Of a stretch of 64,000 nucleotides of DNA, positions 40,634 to 50,769 are shown piece by piece. The DNA is from a virus. Taxonomy: Duplodnaviria > Caudoviricetes. The stretch is taken from positions 32,001 through 96,000 of IMG/VR virus record IMGVR_UViG_3300048819_000142. One strand, given 5' to 3'. The notes under the pieces were generated by a model, which saw only the letters and a list, made by a program, of their open reading frames with translations, was not told the origin of the DNA and made no database searches. How positions within the stretch are numbered: the first letter of the stretch is position 1; every line of letters begins with the position of its first letter. Position numbers and translations under genes: made by a program.

Positions 40634-40852
40634 TCACTTGATTCCCACCTCCCTAATCGGAATGTCTGTGACCTCGTCTTCGTAAAACAGTCGCTTATGG
40701 ACGGAATTGTCGATCGCATACTCGATCTCGTAAGTCTTGAGTCCTCCCGGCTGAAGTCCGCAGCCAAGAACACGGCCTGGAACATTCAGTTTGTAAGCAA
40801 CAACGAGGACGAAGTCAAGGGGCGAGAACTTGTACGTTATGTTGGATTCCAA
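40634..40852 (-). CDS. Hypothetical small protein
   Basis: AGGAGG RBS; short SH3-like beta pattern. Confidence 0.5.
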   Translation of the reverse strand: MESNITYKFSPLDFVLVVAYKLNVPGRVLGCGLQPGGLKTYEIEYAIDNSVHKRLFYEDEVTDIPIREVGIK

Positions 40853-40930
40853 ACTACCCTCCTAAACAAGTCCGGTCCACCCTCGCCATGGGCGAAAGTG
40901 GACCGGGAGGTTGCTTCGTACGGGCGCTGA

Positions 40931-41422
40931 TTAGGCGGCCTTGGCTTCTTTCGCTGCGCCCTTGGAACCCTTTTCCTTGGAACCCGCGGCCGGCGCCGCA
41001 GGCGCCGCAGGCGCCGCAGGCGCCGCAGCAACTCCGGCCGGTGCCGAACCGTCGGCCGCAGCAGCCGGAGTCTTGGGCTCCTTCGCGGGCTTGTCCGGAA
41101 CTTCCACGTCGATTTCCTGGGAATCGGTGACTTCCTTGAGGACGCCCATCTCGCCCAGGCGAGGCTTGTAGAACCCCAGGATCCGCTCTGCGGTCTGTTT
41201 GGTCGTCAGTCCACCCTGCTCAACGGGCTTTTTCAGCGCAGCCAGAAGATCTTCGCGCGTCATCTTGCCGCCGGCTGCCTTGATCGTATCCACAATCAGC
41301 TTTGCCTGAGGTGGGCACTTGTCATTCGCGCCGACTTCCTTAACAACTTCGTAGCTCTTCGTCTTGATCGTCTTTTTTACAGTCGCCATATTTTGTGTTT
41401 GGGCAACCTCCATGTAGTCCAT
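40931..41422 (-). CDS. Winged-helix-like protein (paralogue 1) with PAA/K-rich tail
   Basis: PPQAKLIV...LTTKQ...ILGFYK..L..MG.L; (GGCGCCGCA)x4 encodes the PAA repeats; real start may be ~41389 after GGAGG. Confidence 0.65.
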   Translation of the reverse strand: MDYMEVAQTQNMATVKKTIKTKSYEVVKEVGANDKCPPQAKLIVDTIKAAGGKMTREDLLAALKKPVEQGGLTTKQTAERILGFYKPRLGEMGVLKEVTDSQEIDVEVPDKPAKEPKTPAAAADGSAPAGVAAAPAAPAAPAAPAAGSKEKGSKGAAKEAKAA

Positions 41423-43508: not shown

Positions 43509-43805
43509 CTACTTGAGGGTCTCTTCCAGCTCGGCGATCTCGCGATCCAGGTCCTGGCGCTTCTCTTCCGTCGTCTTCAGGGAGCTCCTGCGAGCTTTTG
43601 CTTCGGACAGCCGACGAGCCCGCTCATCGCGAACGCGAGCAGCGATCTCTCGATCCAGATCATTCACTGCGTTATTCAGCCAGTCGGGCTTATCGAGCTT
43701 CTGAGCTTCGTACTCGGCAAAAATAGCCCGAGCATTGGCTCTCAATTCGATTAGCTCCTCCACGCTGAACTTCGCCACGGTGAGTGTTTTGAGTTTCTCG
43801 ATCAT
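43509..43805 (-). CDS. Coiled-coil protein downstream of the TROVE gene
   Basis: GAAAGGAG RBS before ATG at 43805; R/E/K-rich heptads. Confidence 0.7.
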   Translation of the reverse strand: MIEKLKTLTVAKFSVEELIELRANARAIFAEYEAQKLDKPDWLNNAVNDLDREIAARVRDERARRLSEAKARRSSLKTTEEKRQDLDREIAELEETLK

Positions 43806-43878: not shown

Positions 43879-45357
43879 TCAGGCATGGGCGAGGTCCCTT
43901 GTTTCAAGCTTAAGGACGTCGGCCAAGGACAGCAGAGGCTGCTCCATGATCTCGTCCACGAGGCTGTACCGATTGGTCCTCATGGTCTCAACCATGTTGG
44001 GCAGCGAGTAGTAGTCAGCGGCGCTGGTGATCGGGAATTCATGCAGTTCCAGTCCCTCGCCGCTGCAATTGCTTGTGAGCACGTTCCGATCTCCGGGAAC
44101 GTGGTAGAAGTACACAGGAACCTGACGATCAAGCATCTTCGTCAATTCCTTGTATGCTGTTGCGAATGCCGGCGGGTGGTTCTCGCCCCCGTCAGAAACG
44201 ATTGCGATACCGTCCACCGCGAACTTTCGCTCAACAATGTATCGGCACCCGACACCGATAGACGTGCTGCCATTCGCCACCATTCTTGCTGTGATCTTCT
44301 GCACATCTTCAAGGGTCTTCCCAGTAACGTCAAAGTATGTGGGTGACGTATTGAAGAATACCAGGTGAACCCTTCCTTTTGCTACTCGGGCAAGCAGCGC
44401 AGAGAGCGACTTCGCTACTTCCATGGAAACTTGCATGGAGGACGAAGCATCAGCCAGGACCAACCAGTCACCTTCAAGGGAGGTCTTGTCGAGCTTCTTT
44501 TCCTGCACAGCTCGAACCTTCTCCTTGAACTCGTCGTCGTCCAAAGCGTCTGCTGCCTGCGACAGTTTCATCACGTTCGATGTCCCAGTCGCGACTCGGC
44601 CAAGCGCTTTTTCGAGAGCGCCTCGAAGTGTTGGATCCTTGCGAATCCCAAGCTTCTCGAGCATCTTCATGTGTGAGGTAAGCTCAGCGGGAGTCATGCG
44701 GTCGATCATAGCTGCCAGGATGTTCTTGTCCTGGAGCTTTTTCCCAAGTGCGGGGGCAGCAATGAGGAACGGAATCTTCTTTGTGAGGACCGCTCCAGCT
44801 GCTTCAAGCCCGTCCATGATACTCAAGTTGGCAATGGTGTCGAACACCGACCCTTTCGGTCGCCCTCCCTCGAATAAGACAGACTTGTTGAATTCGGCCG
44901 GCTTCACGCGGCAGAATGCATACAGTTCGTGCATGGTTCGCCTGTGCTGCACGATGGTCCTTGTCCACTTGCCTGGATTTGCCTCCATCGAGTGCAGGTA
45001 TGCCTTTACCAGCTTAGGAACAGCTTGGCGACGACCTGCCATTGATTGGGTCTTGGCGAACCGGACTCCACGCAACAGGTCCCTCGGGGAGAGCAATGCC
45101 AGGTGCGCCTTGGCATTGTCCATCAAGACAGGATCGCCGTGTTCGCGGGAGATCATGCTCTCGAGGGAGATCAACGGTAGAGCAACCTTGGCGTCCCTGA
45201 TCTGGCCCTTGCGTGCATTCCAAGCTACAAGGTGTGCGAAGAATTCGGGATCTTCCCGAGCGGCTTGCCGACCGAGCGGCAAATATTCCTCAAGTTTACC
45301 GTGCGGCGATTTTGCCAGTTCTGCAAACACACTCTGCCTCGTCAGTCCCTGTTCCAT
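43879..45357 (-). CDS. Ro60/Rsr-like TROVE-domain protein with C-terminal vWA domain
   Basis: Helical N-terminal region (DPEFFAHL..W...QIRD, MTP.EL..HMKMLEKLG); MIDAS-like DASSSM, G.TSIG, IVSDGGEN; GAGAGG RBS, ATG at 45357 (492 aa). Confidence 0.75.
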   Translation of the reverse strand: MEQGLTRQSVFAELAKSPHGKLEEYLPLGRQAAREDPEFFAHLVAWNARKGQIRDAKVALPLISLESMISREHGDPVLMDNAKAHLALLSPRDLLRGVRFAKTQSMAGRRQAVPKLVKAYLHSMEANPGKWTRTIVQHRRTMHELYAFCRVKPAEFNKSVLFEGGRPKGSVFDTIANLSIMDGLEAAGAVLTKKIPFLIAAPALGKKLQDKNILAAMIDRMTPAELTSHMKMLEKLGIRKDPTLRGALEKALGRVATGTSNVMKLSQAADALDDDEFKEKVRAVQEKKLDKTSLEGDWLVLADASSSMQVSMEVAKSLSALLARVAKGRVHLVFFNTSPTYFDVTGKTLEDVQKITARMVANGSTSIGVGCRYIVERKFAVDGIAIVSDGGENHPPAFATAYKELTKMLDRQVPVYFYHVPGDRNVLTSNCSGEGLELHEFPITSAADYYSLPNMVETMRTNRYSLVDEIMEQPLLSLADVLKLETRDLAHA

Positions 45358-45382: not shown

Positions 45383-45404
45383 GCGGCCTCCGTGTGGAGG
45401 CCGC
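45383..45404 (-). terminator. Hairpin between the RNA array and TROVE gene (terminator/attenuator)
   Basis: GCGGCCTCC-ACAC-GGAGGCCGC then TGCTATTTT on -. Confidence 0.55.
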
Positions 45405-45413
45405 AGAAGCAAA

Positions 45414-45475
45414 TCGCGAAGTGTCGGTTAGTGCTTTCATGCACCCAAAGCGTGTACACTAGCCAGTGTCCGCGA
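45414..45475 (-). ncRNA. Y-RNA-like module A (minimal)
   Basis: TCGCGG-ACAC-TGGCTAGTG-TACAC-[small hairpin]-CACTAACCGACAC-TT-CGCGA. Confidence 0.65.
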
Positions 45476-45493: not shown

Positions 45494-45655
45494 ACGGCCC
45501 GATGTGTCGAAGTTCTAAAATTAGCTGAGCTAATCCCCCACAGACCTCGCAAGGTCTCCCTCACGAAATCTGTGGGGGATCTTGGATTCGAACCAAGGAC
45601 CATCAGCGGTGAAGCTGAGGCTCTATCCGTGTAAGAACGCCAGTAACCGGGCCGT
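45494..45655 (-). ncRNA. Y-RNA-like module B with D-loop-permuted tRNA domain
   Basis: Shared stem encloses GGATAGAGC / TCAGC-6nt-GCTGA / T arm CTTGG-TTCGAAT-CCAAG / 12-bp loop-closed acceptor stem / TAGCTCAG. Confidence 0.75.
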
Positions 45656-45663
45656 AAAATCAA

Positions 45664-45794
45664 CGAGCGATGTGTCGGCATACGTCACCAAACGGCCCCC
45701 GATAAGTTTGAATGGCGGGGGGCCCGGGTATGAGCCGGACTCCGGGTATCACTACCCGAATGTTTCTACGTGTATGTATTCCAGTAACCGCTCG
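45664..45794 (-). ncRNA. Y-RNA-like module C with degenerate permuted tRNA domain
   Basis: Shared stem encloses GTAGAAAC / CGGGTA-GTGA-TACCCG / CCGG-CTCATAC-CCGG / GCCCCCCGCCA...GGGGGC / GTTT. Confidence 0.65.
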
Positions 45795-45879
45795 AACTTA
45801 AAAAGGGAGCTGGGCCGCCTCGTTGGCCGTGAGTTTGTTGCCTGAGCTCCCCGCATCGACAAATCTGTCGACGAAAACT

Positions 45880-46005
45880 TGTCCCCGAAATGTCTGCAAG
45901 CTGTTTCGCCTTACGGCGACGGCGGATTTGACCCGCAACCTTCTGATTAAGAGTCAGACGCTCTACAAGTGAGCTACGTGTAAGCTTACAAGTGTCCGGG
46001 GGACA
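45880..46005 (-). ncRNA. Y-RNA-like module D with tRNA-Lys(CUU)-like body lacking an acceptor stem
   Basis: TAGCTC-ACTTGTA-GAGC, TCTGA-CTCTTAA-TCAGA, AGGTT, GCGG-GTCAAAT-CCGC inside the shared stem. Confidence 0.75.
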
Positions 46006-46017
46006 CCATAATAACTT

Positions 46018-46092
46018 GATCCCGAAGAGTCGGTGTGCTATTTTTGTGCTGATAGATGGGATATCATGTAAGCACGCCAGTGTCCGGGAATC
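46018..46092 (-). ncRNA. Y-RNA-like module E (minimal)
   Basis: TCCCGG-ACAC-TGGCGTGCT-TACAT-[hairpin]-AGCACACCGACTC-TT-CGGGA. Confidence 0.65.
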
Positions 46093-46179
46093 GGAAACTT
46101 TTTCGCCGGGGGTTGCTATTGCCCGACAGCATTTCGATGTCTTGCTGAGTTGTTAAGCTCAGTTAGCTAACATATAATC

Positions 46180-46210
46180 ATTGTACAACAAGGATTGTCG
46201 GGTGTAACGG
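46180..46210 (-). promoter_or_regulatory. Promoter upstream of the RNA array/TROVE operon
   Basis: CCGT-N21-TACAAT, same motif as seven other sites. Confidence 0.6.
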
Positions 46211-46228
46211 ACAATTTTTCGGACAAAA

Positions 46229-46447
46229 TCAATTCACTGTCTCGTAGCCCGGTAGACCCGGAAGACCTGCATCCCTCAAACTTGCATGCACGTTCGCCCT
46301 AACGTATGCCAAGACCTTACGTCGTTCTACCGAATCCTCAGAAGATAAAAGCAGTATGAATTCGGGAGCGCTCATGTGTAGCTCAATAACAAGGTCATCG
46401 AGCGTAGGAAGTTCAGTTGAGATATCCACCACCTTATCAGAAGTCAT
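46229..46447 (-). CDS. Hypothetical protein
   Basis: 72-aa ORF overlapping the peptidase stop. Confidence 0.5.
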   Translation of the reverse strand: MTSDKVVDISTELPTLDDLVIELHMSAPEFILLLSSEDSVERRKVLAYVRANVHASLRDAGLPGLPGYETVN

Positions 46448-46997: not shown

Positions 46998-47241
46998 CAA
47001 GCAGCAGCCTTTGGCTTTTTGCAAAGCCTTTAAGGATGTCCTCCACCTTCGGCGAGATCTCATCCCATTCGAACATCTGTCCCTTCGTAATAAGGAGAAG
47101 ATACGGCATGACGTGCACTTGAGTCACGCCGCGAATCTCCAGCATAAGTAATCCGAATTCTCCCAATTCGTACCGAGTGTGGTAGGCCTTGACGTTGGGA
47201 TCCTGAGTCGGTTGTACCGATATTTCTGCTACAGTGGGCAC
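46882..47241 (-). CDS. Nfu/NifU N-terminal-domain protein
   Basis: VQPTQDPNVKAY...EIRGVTQVHV...LITK....EWDEI.PKV.DIL. Confidence 0.6.
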   Translation of the reverse strand: MPTVAEISVQPTQDPNVKAYHTRYELGEFGLLMLEIRGVTQVHVMPYLLLITKGQMFEWDEISPKVEDILKGFAKSQRLLLDDAAGQVVGIEKSGSVGISVPAKTDPAARAGKTSRNRA

Positions 47242-48098: not shown

Positions 48099-48444
48099 TT
48101 TCCACCTTCCTTGAATCTTCTTTCCTATACACATCCTCGTCATGATGTGTAGTTGATGCCTCAATGACTCGCGATGTCGCGGTCAAGGACATAAAACGAT
48201 GGTAGATTCCGGGCCGGATGGTGAACGAATCCCCAGCCCTCATCAGCAGTGCCCTGCTTCCTACCTGTAGCGAAACCATGCCTTGCTGTATCAGGAAGGT
48301 CTCGCGCTTGATCTTGTGCATGTGGAGCGACGACATGTAACCGCTCTTAAGTATGAGCGTCTTCATGCAGTAGTGCTCCGAGTTGTGATGCCAGATTTCC
48401 CTGCCCCAGAGCTTTCTCACCTTCTTGCATTGGTTCACTGTCAC
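48058..48444 (-). CDS. Cupin (sugar isomerase-like)
   Basis: K.WGRE, SLHMH..KRETF, IRPG.YHRF, EAST.H.DED. Confidence 0.8.
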   Translation of the reverse strand: MTVNQCKKVRKLWGREIWHHNSEHYCMKTLILKSGYMSSLHMHKIKRETFLIQQGMVSLQVGSRALLMRAGDSFTIRPGIYHRFMSLTATSRVIEASTTHHDEDVYRKEDSRKVENGRSQQSRKATKE

Positions 48445-49241
48445 TTGATTATTCCCCCAATGATTGGTGCTGCAGCTTTGGCCGCTTCAATTAGCTGTTG
48501 CAGCAGCCATTTGACTTGTCCAGCCTTCTTGCGAAGATCCCTTGTTGCAAGGTCAATGGTCTTAACGGTCTCAGCTGCATGTTCTGTTCCCATCTTAACT
48601 GAAGCAGACGTGTCGTCCAAATTCGACAATATGTCAGTTATCTGTTTGCTGGATATCAGGGCCTGCATGGCCTGAAGAGTTTTAGTTATTTCGGGGGATT
48701 GCTCCTTGATCTGTTGGTCGAGCGTATTCTCGAGCGCTGTCAACTCCTCCAACGCGAGACCTGCCTTCTTAACGGTGTCGTTCGACGACTTGACCATCTC
48801 ATCGGCATCCTTACCAACATCCTTGACGACCTTGTCGAGGTCTTTGATCGTCGTGTCAAGGTCGTTGATGGCGGTTTTTGCTGTTGTTAAGAGATCAGTC
48901 GCAGCCTTAGCTGCGAGAACCGTGTTGTTTGACGCGTCAACGCTCGACTTGGACGCAGCAACCAATGCCTTGCTTACCTCAGGAGCAGCCTGTGCCACAG
49001 CCCCCATTGAGGCTTTGGTTGAACCTGCGACAGCGAGTATTGTCGAAGGAAGACAGGAAGGATTGCCCTTCACCTTACCGTCGACTGTGACCGTGCAGTC
49101 AAACAGTTGAGCAGAAGCCAAGTCAAGTCGTTTCTCCATTGGTAGCGATCTAACTACCCCAATGCCAACAGCAACAGTCACGCCGATTATGCAGACACCT
49201 TCGACGCACTTTATCCACCAGTATGCTTTTCTTGGGTTCAT
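48441..49241 (-). CDS. Membrane-anchored coiled-coil protein
   Basis: N-terminal TM helix, long A/T/D/K heptad region. Confidence 0.6.
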   Translation of the reverse strand: MNPRKAYWWIKCVEGVCIIGVTVAVGIGVVRSLPMEKRLDLASAQLFDCTVTVDGKVKGNPSCLPSTILAVAGSTKASMGAVAQAAPEVSKALVAASKSSVDASNNTVLAAKAATDLLTTAKTAINDLDTTIKDLDKVVKDVGKDADEMVKSSNDTVKKAGLALEELTALENTLDQQIKEQSPEITKTLQAMQALISSKQITDILSNLDDTSASVKMGTEHAAETVKTIDLATRDLRKKAGQVKWLLQQLIEAAKAAAPIIGGIIK

Positions 49242-49918
49242 GTTTTCCTCGCAACAGTAAAGCCCCTCGGGCCCTCAAGGTGCACAGCCATCTCTTCGTC
49301 CTTCATGCAGGCACGAAGCCATTGTTCAGCAAACGTATCATGCACAACGAACGTTGCCCCAGACTTGACCTTTTTCACTTCCTCGACGCGGGACGCGCAC
49401 GCGAAGCCAGGGGACGTTCTGGACGACTGATAGCTCGAGTCTATGTACACCAGGTCCGCTTCCTCTAATTCAGGGACCTTAAGCGCTGGTGACCAGAGAA
49501 CTTCCACTGGTAGCCCCTCGCAGACTTTCTCCGCGTAATCAGTCATCCTATGGTCAGTATCACACGTTACTACTCGGCCGAAACCATTCACCCAGCAGGC
49601 TGCACCTAGTGCCCTTGACAAGAGGCCGACGTTTGTACCTGACTCGAACACAAGCTTGGGCTTAAGCTGAACAACGAGACCAAACATGAACACCAGCATT
49701 TCAAGTTCAGACTGAATGATGTGGCGAGGATCAAGATAACCAGCAGAACCCAGCGTGCCAACATGCCATGGGTTAGGAAAGTCTGCCGTAACAGGCATTC
49801 CCCAATACTTTTCGTCGATGCTCCTCGAATCGTGGAAAGACTCGCATGGCGCGACGTCAGTAACTCCTATCGCGAGGGCAAAACCTGCATGCAGTCGTCT
49901 CAAGTAATCCAAGCTCAT
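49238..49918 (-). CDS. Class I methyltransferase-like protein
   Basis: KPKLVFESGTNVGL, VTCD, DLVYIDS, VVHDT. Confidence 0.7.
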   Translation of the reverse strand: MSLDYLRRLHAGFALAIGVTDVAPCESFHDSRSIDEKYWGMPVTADFPNPWHVGTLGSAGYLDPRHIIQSELEMLVFMFGLVVQLKPKLVFESGTNVGLLSRALGAACWVNGFGRVVTCDTDHRMTDYAEKVCEGLPVEVLWSPALKVPELEEADLVYIDSSYQSSRTSPGFACASRVEEVKKVKSGATFVVHDTFAEQWLRACMKDEEMAVHLEGPRGFTVARKT

Positions 49919-50769
49919 TTCGGAAACCACCTCCAATATTCTGACGCCATCCAGTCGTCGATCTTCATCAGTTCTTCATGTGGCAATTTTCCAACCACCC
50001 GGAATCCACCAGCATACGTTCCGTCGCTGATGATCAGATCTTTCTGCGTCTTCGCAAAGGAGGCTGGAGTCTCGTGCATGCCAATCTCCCCAATGTTCTG
50101 ACACCGCGATACTACAGGGTGCAGGGATTTCTTCCTCGCCAATCGCATGTTGTACGAGAGTGAAAAATCCCACCCGTTAGGACCCAGGAACTTCGTGCAC
50201 CACGTGGCTTTGACGAACGGCCACTGGTGCTTGGACAGCGCCCAAGCAAACGGCGCCGTGATAAATGGCGACTCTACGACGAAGGACGGATCATCGGGTA
50301 TTTCGCCGGGATTTTGACCGTGGCCGAAACCCCTGTGATTGCACAACGAGGCGAGGACGTAGTCCGACAGGGGTCCGCCGTGTCGCTCTTGAAACCAGTT
50401 AGCGAAATGAAGCGAATCCAGCGTGAGTTTAGCATCGTCCTCTATGAGGACGTTGAAGTCTGACTCGTGCTCTTCAAATGCCCTCGAGAGTGCTGCGTGG
50501 TGGTTGCCTCCGACTCCCTCGCGTGACTGGTTAACATAGATGAAACACTCTGCCAGTCCCTCATTTGAAATGATCTCCGCAGCCTTCTCGCAAAGCTTCT
50601 CAGTGCCGGGTTCAACATTTCCGAAGCTATCAACGTCGATAGACATGATCAGCTTGTCGAATCCCCGACGCCCCGATTCTGCCAGAGTAAGCAACGCGAG
50701 CGTTAGTCCAGACAGTGCCTCAGCTGTGTAAACAGGACGGCTCGATGCTACAAGTGAGATGGTCCTCAT
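49915..50769 (-). CDS. GT-A glycosyltransferase
   Basis: SRP.Y..EAL, SID, LIEDDA, GWD, P..SRCQNIG..G. Confidence 0.75.
   Translation of the reverse strand: MRTISLVASSRPVYTAEALSGLTLALLTLAESGRRGFDKLIMSIDVDSFGNVEPGTEKLCEKAAEIISNEGLAECFIYVNQSREGVGGNHHAALSRAFEEHESDFNVLIEDDAKLTLDSLHFANWFQERHGGPLSDYVLASLCNHRGFGHGQNPGEIPDDPSFVVESPFITAPFAWALSKHQWPFVKATWCTKFLGPNGWDFSLSYNMRLARKKSLHPVVSRCQNIGEIGMHETPASFAKTQKDLIISDGTYAGGFRVVGKLPHEELMKIDDWMASEYWRWFPK

What the first reader, a model, noticed from the sequence alone, without database searches (positions are those of the whole stretch)
45880..46005. tRNA-Lys(CUU) mimic with intact anticodon arm but acceptor stem replaced (module D)
Seen: D arm GCTC-ACTTGTA-GAGC, canonical anticodon arm TCTGA-CT[CTT]AA-TCAGA (anticodon at 45949-45951) and a degenerate T arm (loop GTCAAAT), but no 7-bp acceptor stem or CCA end; the termini run into the shared stem. 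It should not be chargeable. Established: tRNA-Lys is a target of anti-phage anticodon nucleases such as PrrC. Inference: a Ro-protected decoy or bait for host anticodon nucleases or tRNA-sensing defences.
Basis: partly seen in the sequence, partly recalled or inferred. Interest (0 to 1): 0.8.

Follow-up and report, generated by a model that had tools for sequence, protein, structure and literature searches.

The report
tRNA-shaped cargo on phage Ro60-partner RNA
A 117-kb peat phage makes a small RNA that looks like a tRNA-Lys with its amino-acid end blocked, carried on a stem shared with four neighbouring RNAs beside a Ro60-like ring-protein gene; relatives keep the tRNA shape but not the Lys anticodon, so it is probably a general tRNA look-alike, not a Lys-specific decoy.

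Summary
On the minus strand, 46004-45881 folds into a closing stem that encloses a D arm, a 5-bp/7-nt anticodon arm (CUU at 45951-45949), a weakened T arm, a 3-bp acceptor remnant and a GNRA-capped hairpin. Rfam scores the core as tRNA positions 5-66; ARAGORN calls no tRNA.

It is the second of five RNAs sharing one handle, upstream of a protein that no TROVE profile detects but whose model matches Ro60 end to end (Z 19.7). Peat metatranscriptomes hold the array.

A covariance model finds 59 distinct homologues beside the same gene in metagenomic phages. They keep the handle, D and T arms, and the anticodon-loop frame (U33 90%, R37 94%). The triplet is not kept: 25 different anticodons occur, 27% are absent from normal bacterial tRNA sets (28% expected at random), and it shows no phylogenetic signal.

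A tRNA-Lys-specific nuclease decoy is therefore poorly supported. The best reading is a Ro60-partner Y-like RNA displaying a generic, unchargeable whole-tRNA mimic. A bait role remains possible.

It is a new variant of the known Ro60/YrlA kind. The scan has already reported similar handle-RNA arrays beside Ro60-like genes in other phages.

The parts
45881..46004 (-). Module D, whole unit: handle enclosing the tRNA-like cargo
   Evidence: RNAfold gives -47.8 kcal/mol, z -2.8, and 0 of 200 shuffles fold as well. Own model R1 scores 108.9 bits.
45983..46004 (-). Handle, 5' strand: outer stem, ACAC internal loop, inner stem
   Evidence: Pairs with 45881-45902. All 14 handle pairs show compensatory changes across 15 homologues.
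45977..45982 (-). UACACG, the family-wide UACAYG motif at the top of the handle. Its last 3 nt form the acceptor remnant.
   Evidence: Invariant ACA-G columns in alignment A2. Present in all five window units and nearly all homologues.
45960..45974 (-). D arm, 4 bp, loop ACUUGUA with a single G
   Evidence: Rfam alignment. One of only 2 of 59 homologues without GG in the D loop.
45942..45958 (-). Anticodon arm, 5 bp plus 7-nt loop CU-CUU-AA; anticodon at 45951-45949
   Evidence: Rfam alignment. The stem covaries across the family, with 37 distinct stems and 45/52 fully paired.
45922..45936 (-). T arm, 4 bp, loop GUCAAAU (U54 replaced by G)
   Evidence: One of 4 of 59 homologues without the GUUCRA T loop, and the only one lacking both elbow motifs.
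45907..45921 (-). CGU (3' side of the acceptor remnant) followed by the hairpin CGCC-GUAA-GGCG
   Evidence: A GNRA-capped hairpin of at least 4 bp sits at this place in 35 of 59 homologues.
45881..45902 (-). Handle, 3' strand, containing the conserved GAC
   Evidence: G-A-C columns nearly invariant.
46018..46092 (-). Module E: same handle, short cargo
   Evidence: Its cargo is a deletion remnant of a full tRNA-like cargo in the nearest relative, L001:3423-3554.
45664..45797 (-). Module C: same handle, other structured cargo
45495..45655 (-). Module B: same handle; cargo has a perfect T arm, a long closed acceptor-like hairpin and split D-arm halves
   Evidence: weak R1 hit at 26.6 bits.
45414..45475 (-). 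Module A: same handle, short cargo
46180..46208 (-). Promoter-like site ahead of the array
   Evidence: GTTACA, 17-nt spacer, TACAAT. This is a consensus match only.
45383..45404 (-). Terminator-like hairpin between the array and the Ro-like gene
   Evidence: 9-bp GC-rich stem followed by a U-rich tail.
43879..45357 (-). Ro60-fold protein gene (P0001, 492 aa): helical ring plus vWA domain with a DxSxS motif
   Evidence: AF2 model pLDDT 83.7. Foldseek's top 12 hits are all Ro60. VIA-align Z 19.7/19.1/18.3 to human, Deinococcus and phage phiLo Ro60 over about 430 residues. D303, S305 and S307 are invariant.
43509..43805 (-). Conserved 98-aa helical protein gene directly downstream of the Ro-like gene
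   Evidence: A homologue follows the Ro-like gene in 68 of 75 related loci.

Best explanation
Module D is one of five co-transcribed partner RNAs (Y-RNA-like) of a phage-encoded Ro60-fold protein. Its 5' and 3' ends pair into a conserved handle: an outer stem, an internal loop, an inner stem, UACAYG on the 5' side and GAC on the 3' side. By analogy with Y RNAs, this handle is the docking site for the ring protein. The handle carries a cargo descended from a real tRNA in its natural order (D arm, anticodon arm, T arm). Its acceptor end is reduced to 3 bp and capped by a GNRA hairpin, so it has no 3' end to charge. I infer that the cargo acts as a generic whole-tRNA look-alike, as in bacterial YrlA: it lets the Ro-like particle engage, or compete for, a factor that recognises tRNA shape. 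The anticodon letters themselves do not matter. Shown: the anatomy, the Ro60 fold of the neighbour, family-wide conservation and covariation, free variation of the triplet, and transcription in peat. Inferred: binding to the Ro-like protein, and the tether or competitor role.
For: Anatomy. The same handle occurs five times in a row, between a promoter-like and a terminator-like site, directly upstream of the gene. The neighbouring protein has the full Ro60 architecture, with an invariant DxSxS motif. Model R1 finds full-length homologues upstream of the same gene, on the same strand, in most of the 75 viral loci, whereas real tRNAs match only the model core. 22 of 28 pairs show compensatory changes. 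D arm, T arm and loop frame are conserved while the triplet is free. The D-arm sequence is the same whatever the anticodon, which points to one origin followed by drift rather than repeated capture. Three metatranscriptome runs hold the array at 99-100% identity and at higher depth than its flanks. They hold nothing over 48421-50000, where a DNA run is flat, so this is not DNA carry-over. Published precedent: Y RNAs with tRNA-like domains next to Ro60 genes, including in phages (PMC4201824, 10.1101/312249, PMC12135203).
Against: No binding data exist. The protein is not detected by Pfam TROVE, nor the RNA by Rfam YrlA. The handle lacks the published GNCGAA motif. The window copy is the only one of 59 that has lost both elbow motifs (D-loop GG and T-loop GUUCRA), and its neighbour E has lost its cargo, so this phage's tRNA-like cargoes may be decaying. 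The conserved U33/R37 frame shows that something constrains the anticodon loop, which a pure elbow-binding tether would not need. The contigs cannot show the RNA's ends or its processing.
Confidence: 0.68

Rival explanations
1. One reading: a Ro-protected decoy specifically for tRNA-Lys anticodon nucleases (PrrC-like). The nuclease would bind or cut the CUU loop of module D instead of cellular tRNA-Lys.
For: The anticodon stem-loop is a flawless tRNA-Lys(CUU)-type arm with U33 and A37. The phage has no tRNA-Lys gene of its own, only Arg-CCU and Met-CAU. CUU recurs in 5 of 52 homologues.
Against: The triplet is the least conserved part of the family. The nearest relative carries AUA. 27% of homologues have anticodons that no normal bacterial tRNA carries, equal to the random expectation. 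There is no phylogenetic signal: 37 changes against 36-40 in shuffles. From my own knowledge, the characterised tRNA-Lys nucleases were defined on tRNA-Lys(UUU) with a modified wobble base, not on CUU.
Confidence: 0.06
2. A generic or lineage-tuned bait. The Ro-like particle displays whole-tRNA mimics to soak up, sense or redirect host tRNA-cutting defence enzymes, and the anticodon diversifies under an arms race.
For: The anticodon-loop frame is kept under selection while positions 34-35 are among the fastest columns. Some arrays carry two tRNA-like units with different anticodons. In relatives the locus lies inside large phage tRNA arrays.
Against: Fast change at 34-36 is equally what no constraint predicts. 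Non-natural anticodons occur at the random rate. No defence or anti-defence gene is linked. The phage has no RNA repair genes: no RtcB, Rnl2 or CCA-adding enzyme. Nothing has been tested experimentally.
Confidence: 0.18
3. A decaying remnant. The handle still serves the Ro-like protein, but the tRNA-like cargo of D no longer has a function in this particular phage.
For: It is the only homologue of 59 that lacks both elbow motifs, and its T stem is 4 bp. Neighbour E is a deletion remnant of a complete tRNA-like cargo. This phage has 2 tRNA genes where relatives have dozens.
Against: The D stem, anticodon stem-loop, acceptor remnant and GNRA hairpin are all intact. R1 still scores it at 108.9 bits. 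It is transcribed.
Confidence: 0.12
4. A tRNA precursor. The handle is a processing scaffold, and D matures into a working tRNA-Lys.
For: 24 of 59 homologues (not this one) have a 6-7-bp acceptor stem, and 10 have an encoded discriminator plus CCA. M. smegmatis YrlA is cut by RNase P and receives CCA (PMC4201824).
Against: D has a 3-bp acceptor remnant, no CCA and a hairpin in place of the 3' strand. ARAGORN makes no call. The phage has no CCA-adding enzyme.
Confidence: 0.02

Closest known systems
YrlA, the tRNA-like Y RNA of bacterial and mycobacteriophage Ro60 (Rsr) loci (Rfam RF02553; Chen et al. 2014, PMC4201824; Wang et al. 2018, 10.1101/312249)
   Same: A small RNA encoded beside a Ro60-type gene. 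[quoted passage not shown]
   Different: YrlA is circularly permuted (T arm, closed acceptor, D arm). Its anticodon stem is fused to the Ro-binding stem and it has no anticodon loop. Module D keeps the natural order and a complete 7-nt anticodon loop, and the handle joins at the acceptor stem. There is no RF02553 hit at E<=1, no GNCGAA motif, and the protein is not found by the TROVE profile.
Deinococcus radiodurans Yrn1 (PMC4201824)
   Same: D-like and T arms in tRNA order, with an anticodon-arm-like hairpin (5-bp stem) between them, inside a Y RNA.
   Different: Yrn1 has a 6-nt loop, no full D arm, no variable region and a metazoan-like Ro-binding helix. Module D is a near-complete tRNA body scoring 43 bits on the tRNA model.
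Thermus phage phiLo Ro60 with Yrl1 and Yrl2 (PMC12135203; PDB 9KOP, 9L5Y)
   Same: A phage-encoded Ro60 with several Y-like RNAs encoded upstream of the gene. It is the best Foldseek match for P0001.
   Different: The phiLo RNAs are stem-bulge-stem RNAs with a CGAA motif, and no tRNA-like body is reported. Sequence identity of the proteins is about 16%.
Other tRNA mimics: tmRNA and plant-virus 3' tRNA-like structures
   Same: An L-shaped tRNA imitation used outside normal decoding.
   Different: Those have free CCA ends and are aminoacylated. Module D has a closed end.
Handle-RNA arrays beside Ro60-like (DUF2828/vWA) genes in other phages, noted earlier in this scan
   Same: Arrays of small RNAs share one closing stem and display tRNA parts next to a Ro60-shaped protein gene, often inside tRNA arrays.
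   Different: Those notes describe a 7-bp stem followed by an ACAGCAA/CNGCAA handle and mostly isolated anticodon arms. Here the handle is UACAYG with GAC, the cargo is a whole tRNA body, and the protein shows no DUF2828 hit.

Membership tests
Canonical tRNA (Rfam RF00005) | Cloverleaf core: D arm, anticodon arm with 7-nt loop (U33, purine 37), T arm | tested here: met
   43.3 bits against a gathering score of 29, model positions 5-66.
Canonical tRNA (Rfam RF00005) | 7-bp acceptor stem with discriminator and a CCA or processable 3' end | tested here: not met
   Only 3 bp (ACG/CGU) remain, followed by a hairpin and the handle; no CCA. ARAGORN calls nothing.
Canonical tRNA (Rfam RF00005) | Elbow motifs: GG in the D loop and UUCRA in the T loop | tested here: not met
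   D loop is ACUUGUA and T loop is GUCAAAU. It is the only one of 59 homologues lacking both.
YrlA (Rfam RF02553) | Match to the family covariance model | tested here: not met
   No match at E<=1 in the region or in the whole 117-kb genome.
YrlA (Rfam RF02553) | [quoted passage not shown] | tested here: not met
   Module D runs D arm, anticodon arm, T arm and has a 7-nt anticodon loop.
YrlA (Rfam RF02553) | GNCGAAN0-1G motif on the 5' strand of the Ro-binding module (PMC4201824) | tested here: not met
   The 5' strand reads outer stem, ACAC, inner stem, UACACG. The only CGA-like element (C/A-GAC) lies on the 3' strand.
Y RNA in the broad sense (Ro60 partner RNA) | Encoded next to a Ro60 gene, with 5' and 3' ends paired in a conserved bulged stem | tested here: met
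   Five units lie directly upstream of the Ro60-fold gene. The handle covaries. The linkage recurs across the viral loci.
Y RNA in the broad sense (Ro60 partner RNA) | Physical binding to the Ro60 protein | not testable with these tools
   Needs pull-down or EMSA.
Ro60 / TROVE protein (the neighbour P0001) | HEAT-repeat ring plus C-terminal vWA domain with a MIDAS DxSxS motif | tested here: met
   Predicted fold matches Ro60 at Z 19.7 (431 aligned residues, rmsd 3.9) to human, 19.1 to Deinococcus and 18.3 to phiLo. D303, S305 and S307 are invariant. This is a predicted model, not a solved structure.
Ro60 / TROVE protein (the neighbour P0001) | Match to Pfam TROVE (PF05731) | tested here: not met
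   No hit at E<=1. A profile of 33 members does not reach any Ro60 in the PDB by sequence. 6 of 33 members weakly hit vWA_Ro60 (PF25045, best E 2.8e-4).
Anticodon-nuclease decoy for tRNA-Lys (proposed, no curated family) | The mimicked anticodon is kept by selection among homologues | tested here: not met
   25 triplets in 52 homologues, CUU in 5. Entropy 1.67-1.97 bits at positions 34-36. No tree signal.
Anticodon-nuclease decoy for tRNA-Lys (proposed, no curated family) | Bound or cut by an anticodon nuclease | not testable with these tools
   Needs an enzyme assay.

The most novel reading that the evidence does not exclude
A widespread family of uncultured phages uses a divergent Ro60-like ring to display whole-tRNA mimics. 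Their anticodon-loop frame is preserved while the triplet turns over as fast as any site in the RNA. This would be a programmable bait or sensor for host enzymes that read anticodon loops (tRNA-cutting defence nucleases), with each phage lineage tuning its own triplet. In sister units with a full acceptor stem and an encoded CCA, it could instead be a Ro-caged tRNA.
Probability: 0.15. Interest if true: 0.85.

Novelty: new variant of a known kind. Interest (0 to 1): 0.58.

Why it matters
What the tRNA-like half of bacterial Y RNAs binds has been an open question since 2014. This family offers a contrast: a complete tRNA body, anticodon loop included, in natural order, attached to the Ro-binding stem at the acceptor end. 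There are 59 distinct natural variants, ranging from full tRNA with CCA to capped mimic to deleted cargo. The conservation pattern (elbow and loop frame kept, triplet free) narrows the search for a partner to factors that read tRNA shape rather than tRNA identity. It also gives ready-made mutants for testing. The protein family escapes the TROVE profile and is annotated only as hypothetical, so Ro60/Y-RNA systems in phages are more common and more varied than annotation shows. In relatives the locus sits inside large tRNA arrays, which ties Ro60 biology to the contest between phages and hosts over tRNAs.

Tried and rejected
- Phage GenBank search with the 921-nt array (blastn, distant mode): no match.
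- tblastn of P0001 against 50,697 phage records: one uncultured 595-kb phage at 26% identity. No cultured relative is available to name a host.
- Genome-contig scan: six MAG contigs only. No clear cellular home.
- phmmer and profile searches of P0001 and A1 against PDB sequences: no Ro60 hit. The relationship is visible only by fold.
- Complex prediction of the Ro-like protein with the conserved 98-aa neighbour: score 0.00, no verdict either way.
- The 98-aa protein: no Pfam or PHROG family, no ESM Atlas hit, and no Foldseek PDB match at E<=0.001 for a confident three-helix model.
- A simple motif-plus-duplex scanner for counting handles per locus was too noisy in coding DNA to give reliable counts. 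I use it only qualitatively, to say that several units cluster upstream of the gene.
- A hand alignment of short units for a handle-only covariance model was misregistered by one column, and I dropped it.
- Test for positive selection on the anticodon: the closest module pairs are already at most 83% identical, so fast change at positions 34-35 cannot be told apart from absence of constraint.
- RtcB, Rnl2-type ligase and CCA-adding enzyme are not found in the phage genome.
- RNA contigs cannot give the ends, strand or level of module D itself.

Full report
**1. What is there**

The feature lies on the minus strand. Read 5' to 3' from 46004 to 81 of the 45,000s (46004-45881), it consists of the following elements:
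- an outer stem;
- an ACAC internal loop;
- an inner 9-bp stem;
- UACACG, then UA;
- a D arm (GCUC, loop ACUUGUA, GAGC);
- an anticodon arm (UCUGA, loop CU-CUU-AA, UCAGA; anticodon at 45951-45949);
- AGGUU;
- a 4-bp T arm with loop GUCAAAU;
- CGU;
- a hairpin CGCC-GUAA-GGCG;
- the 3' strands of the inner and outer stems, with a GAC at the internal loop.

Rfam's tRNA model matches 45979-45919(-) at 43.3 bits (gathering score 29), but only over model positions 5-66. That leaves three acceptor base pairs (ACG/CGU). ARAGORN calls no tRNA anywhere in the window. The fold is more stable than all 200 shuffles (z -2.8). Its strand was implicit.

**2. Context in this phage**

The window is part of a 116,843-bp virus record that CheckV rates complete.

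Module D is the second of five tandem units on the minus strand: E 46092-46018, D, C 45797-45664, B 45655-45495 and A 45475-45414. All five share the same handle:
- on the 5' side, CGG, a 4-nt loop ending in AC, UGG, 6-7 nt, then UACAYG;
- on the 3' side, the complement, then (C)GAC, 3-4 nt, then the outer complement.

A promoter-like site (46208-46180) precedes the array. A terminator-like hairpin (45404-45383) separates it from a 492-aa gene at 45357-43879.

Evidence on that protein (P0001):
- Its only Pfam hit is a vWA domain, and its only PHROG hit is a weak match (E 1e-7, vWA part only) to phrog_850, "RNA-binding protein". Pfam TROVE does not match at E<=1.
- An AlphaFold2 model built from 33 homologues (pLDDT 83.7) has Ro60 structures as its 12 best Foldseek matches.
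- By VIA-align it aligns over about 430 residues at Z 19.7 (human Ro60), 19.1 (Deinococcus Rsr) and 18.3 (Thermus phage phiLo Ro60). The next tier, at Z 14.4 or below, matches the vWA domain only.
- The MIDAS-type residues D303, S305 and S307 are invariant in the family.

I therefore accept it as a divergent Ro60-fold protein. This rests on a predicted structure.

**3. Expression**

The stretch occurs in peat metagenomes and in three peat metatranscriptome runs.
- When their contigs are laid on 12 kb, two RNA runs each give a 760-nt contig with identical ends, 45499-46258. It covers units E, D, C and B. Depths are 26.5 and 6.9, against 2-10 on the flanks.
- A third RNA run gives 45686-46179 at depth 15.3.
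- All three RNA runs have nothing over 48421-50000, where a DNA run is flat at 13.

The RNA signal is therefore not DNA carry-over, and the array is transcribed in nature. The shared contig end at 45499 falls at the 3' edge of unit B's stem, just before a U run. This is a weak hint of an RNA end. Contigs cannot show the ends or the level of D itself.

**4. Relatives**

P0001 has at least 834 homologues in the protein collection. All are unnamed or "hypothetical", and none carries a TROVE hit.
- 75 loci came from viral contigs of 4-180 kb.
- Only one GenBank phage record matches, an uncultured 595-kb phage at 26% identity.
- Only six MAG contigs among 185,579 species genomes match.

This is a family of uncultured phages.

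BLAST, and then a covariance model built from 15 units (R1), found full-length matches above 60 bits in most loci. All lie upstream of the Ro-like gene on its strand. Genuine tRNAs in the same loci matched only the model's core, positions 28-107. After removing duplicates there are 59 distinct units. RNAalifold on the seed found compensatory changes in 22 of 28 pairs, including all 14 handle pairs.

**5. What is conserved and what is not**

Conserved:
- the handle, including UACAYG and GAC;
- the D arm (UAGCUCA..GGUAGAGCA in nearly every unit, whatever its anticodon);
- the T arm (GGUUCRAnUCC);
- the architecture of the anticodon arm. 52 of 59 have 5 bp plus 7 nt. There are 37 different stems, and 45 of 52 are fully paired. 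Among those 52, position 32 is a pyrimidine in 45, U33 is present in 47, position 37 is a purine in 49, and A38 is present in 46.

Not conserved: the triplet.
- There are 25 different anticodons. UGA occurs 8 times and CUU 5 times.
- Entropy is 1.67-1.97 bits at positions 34-36.
- Ten units have A34 anticodons other than ACG, and four have stop anticodons. Together that is 27%, against 28% expected for random triplets. There is no sign of selection to imitate real tRNAs.
- On a tree of 49 Ro-like proteins the anticodon needs 37 changes; shuffled labels need 36-40.
- Among the 28 closest unit pairs, position 35 is the most variable of 132 columns (0.82 against a median of 0.25), position 32 ranks second and position 34 sixth.
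- Units with the identical stem UCUGA/UCAGA carry CUU, UGU, UAU, CAU, AGU, CGU and ACG. The same D arm across all anticodons argues for a single origin followed by drift, not repeated capture of different tRNAs.

**6. Two sub-architectures**

Thirty-five of 59 units, including the window's D, have a short acceptor remnant (5 bp or fewer) followed by a 4-5-bp hairpin with a GNRA loop. At least 14 different stems occur there. By my rough hand estimate, a random 34-nt tail would show such a hairpin about 1.4% of the time.

Twenty-four have a 6-7-bp acceptor stem and mostly no hairpin. Ten of the 59 have a discriminator plus CCA encoded in front of the handle's 3' strand.

In the window copy, 3 remnant pairs plus 4 hairpin pairs equal the 7 pairs of an acceptor stem. 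If they stack on the T stem, the mimic would keep the length of a tRNA's acceptor/T helix while closing its end. This is inference.

The nearest relative (L001; Ro-like protein 62% identical by tblastn, 63% in the tree alignment) has:
- in place of unit E, a full tRNA-like unit with UCC, a 6-bp acceptor and CCA;
- in place of D, a homologous unit with anticodon AUA.

The window's E is visibly a deletion remnant of that cargo.

**7. Peculiarity of the window copy**

D is the only one of 59 units that lacks both the D-loop GG and the GUUCRA T loop. These are the partners that form the tRNA elbow. Its T stem has 4 pairs. Together with the gutted cargo of E, and with this phage's two tRNA genes (Arg-CCU and Met-CAU) against dozens in many relatives, this raises the possibility that tRNA-like cargoes are under relaxed selection here. 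Unit B retains a perfect T arm.

**8. Interpretation**

The best-supported reading is that D is a Y-RNA-like partner of the phage Ro60-fold protein, and that its cargo is a generic, unchargeable whole-tRNA mimic. It works like YrlA: a stem for Ro and a tRNA look-alike for something else.

It is not a member of that family. The Rfam YrlA model does not match, the published GNCGAA motif is absent, and the topology differs. YrlA is circularly permuted, with a closed acceptor and no anticodon loop (10.1101/312249). D is in natural order with a full anticodon loop. Topologically it is closer to Deinococcus Yrn1, which has an anticodon-arm-like hairpin between D-like and T arms (PMC4201824), but it is far more tRNA-like.

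The conserved loop frame means that something constrains the anticodon loop's shape, while the free triplet means that nothing reads its identity across the family. A tRNA-Lys-specific nuclease decoy is therefore unlikely (about 0.06). A bait that is generic or tuned in each lineage remains open (about 0.18), because fast turnover is what both an arms race and no constraint predict, and the available pairs are too diverged to separate them.

The phage encodes no RtcB, Rnl2-type ligase or CCA-adding enzyme, so any repair or processing partner would be the host's. Maturation of D into a working tRNA is very unlikely (about 0.02).

**9. Novelty**

Ro60 genes with Y-like RNAs in phages, and tRNA-like Y RNAs, are published (PMC4201824, PMC12135203, PMC7824862). 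I found no paper describing this protein subfamily, this handle, or Y-like RNAs carrying a complete tRNA body with an anticodon loop. The literature held here is incomplete.

Earlier notes of this scan describe analogous handle-RNA arrays beside Ro60-like genes in other phages, with a different handle. The general phenomenon has therefore been seen before on other DNA. First readers also noted this same array.

I rate it a new variant of a known kind, of moderate to good interest. The specific decoy claim that earned the original score is not upheld.

Noticed in passing
window 43509-43805 (-): A 98-aa, confidently three-helical protein (pLDDT 91.5, conserved PEW motif) follows the Ro-like gene in 68 of 75 related loci, and its extended reading frame overlaps the end of that gene. 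It has no Pfam, PHROG, ESM Atlas or PDB-fold match. The complex prediction with the Ro-like protein gave no verdict. It is a candidate third component of the particle.
   Followed up: partly
window 45495-45655 (-): Unit B reads as a tRNA with a long closed acceptor hairpin and a perfect T arm. Its D-arm halves (UAGCUCAGCU ... GGAUAGAGC) are separated by the handle, as if the handle were inserted in the D loop. In the nearest relative (L001:3697-3845) the T arm, closed acceptor and GG are kept, but the D-stem halves are not.
   Followed up: partly
window 46018-46092 (-) versus L001:3423-3554: Unit E has the same handle as a relative's unit that carries a complete tRNA-like body (UCC, 6-bp acceptor, encoded CCA). 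E keeps only the tail of that cargo, so the cargo was deleted in this lineage.
   Followed up: partly
for example L007:2907-3047, L010:2377-2514, L032:2104-2242, L067:801-945: 24 of 59 homologous units have 6-7-bp acceptor stems, and 10 have a discriminator plus CCA encoded just before the handle's 3' strand. These are whole tRNAs caged inside the handle, several with anticodons unusual for bacteria (AAU, UCA). Whether they are released as tRNAs is unknown.
   Followed up: partly
loci L008, L010, L012, L022, L028, L031, L035, L041, L042, L046-L050, L057: In many relatives the Ro-like gene and its RNA array sit inside arrays of 10-23 ordinary tRNA genes. The window's phage has only two tRNA genes in 117 kb.
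   Followed up: partly
window 40841-41403: This is the deepest metatranscriptome contig in the 12 kb examined (depth 24-39 in three runs). It overlaps the 163-aa minus-strand ORF at 40931-41422, whose function I did not examine.
   Followed up: no
window 47167-47171: One DNA run and one RNA run carry a 40-nt insertion variant at this point, indicating strain variation in the population.
   Followed up: no
window 45874-45880 and 46010-46016 (-), and many loci: AAGUU follows the 3' end of the handle in units D and E and in many homologues. It could be a processing signal between units. This was not tested.
   Followed up: no
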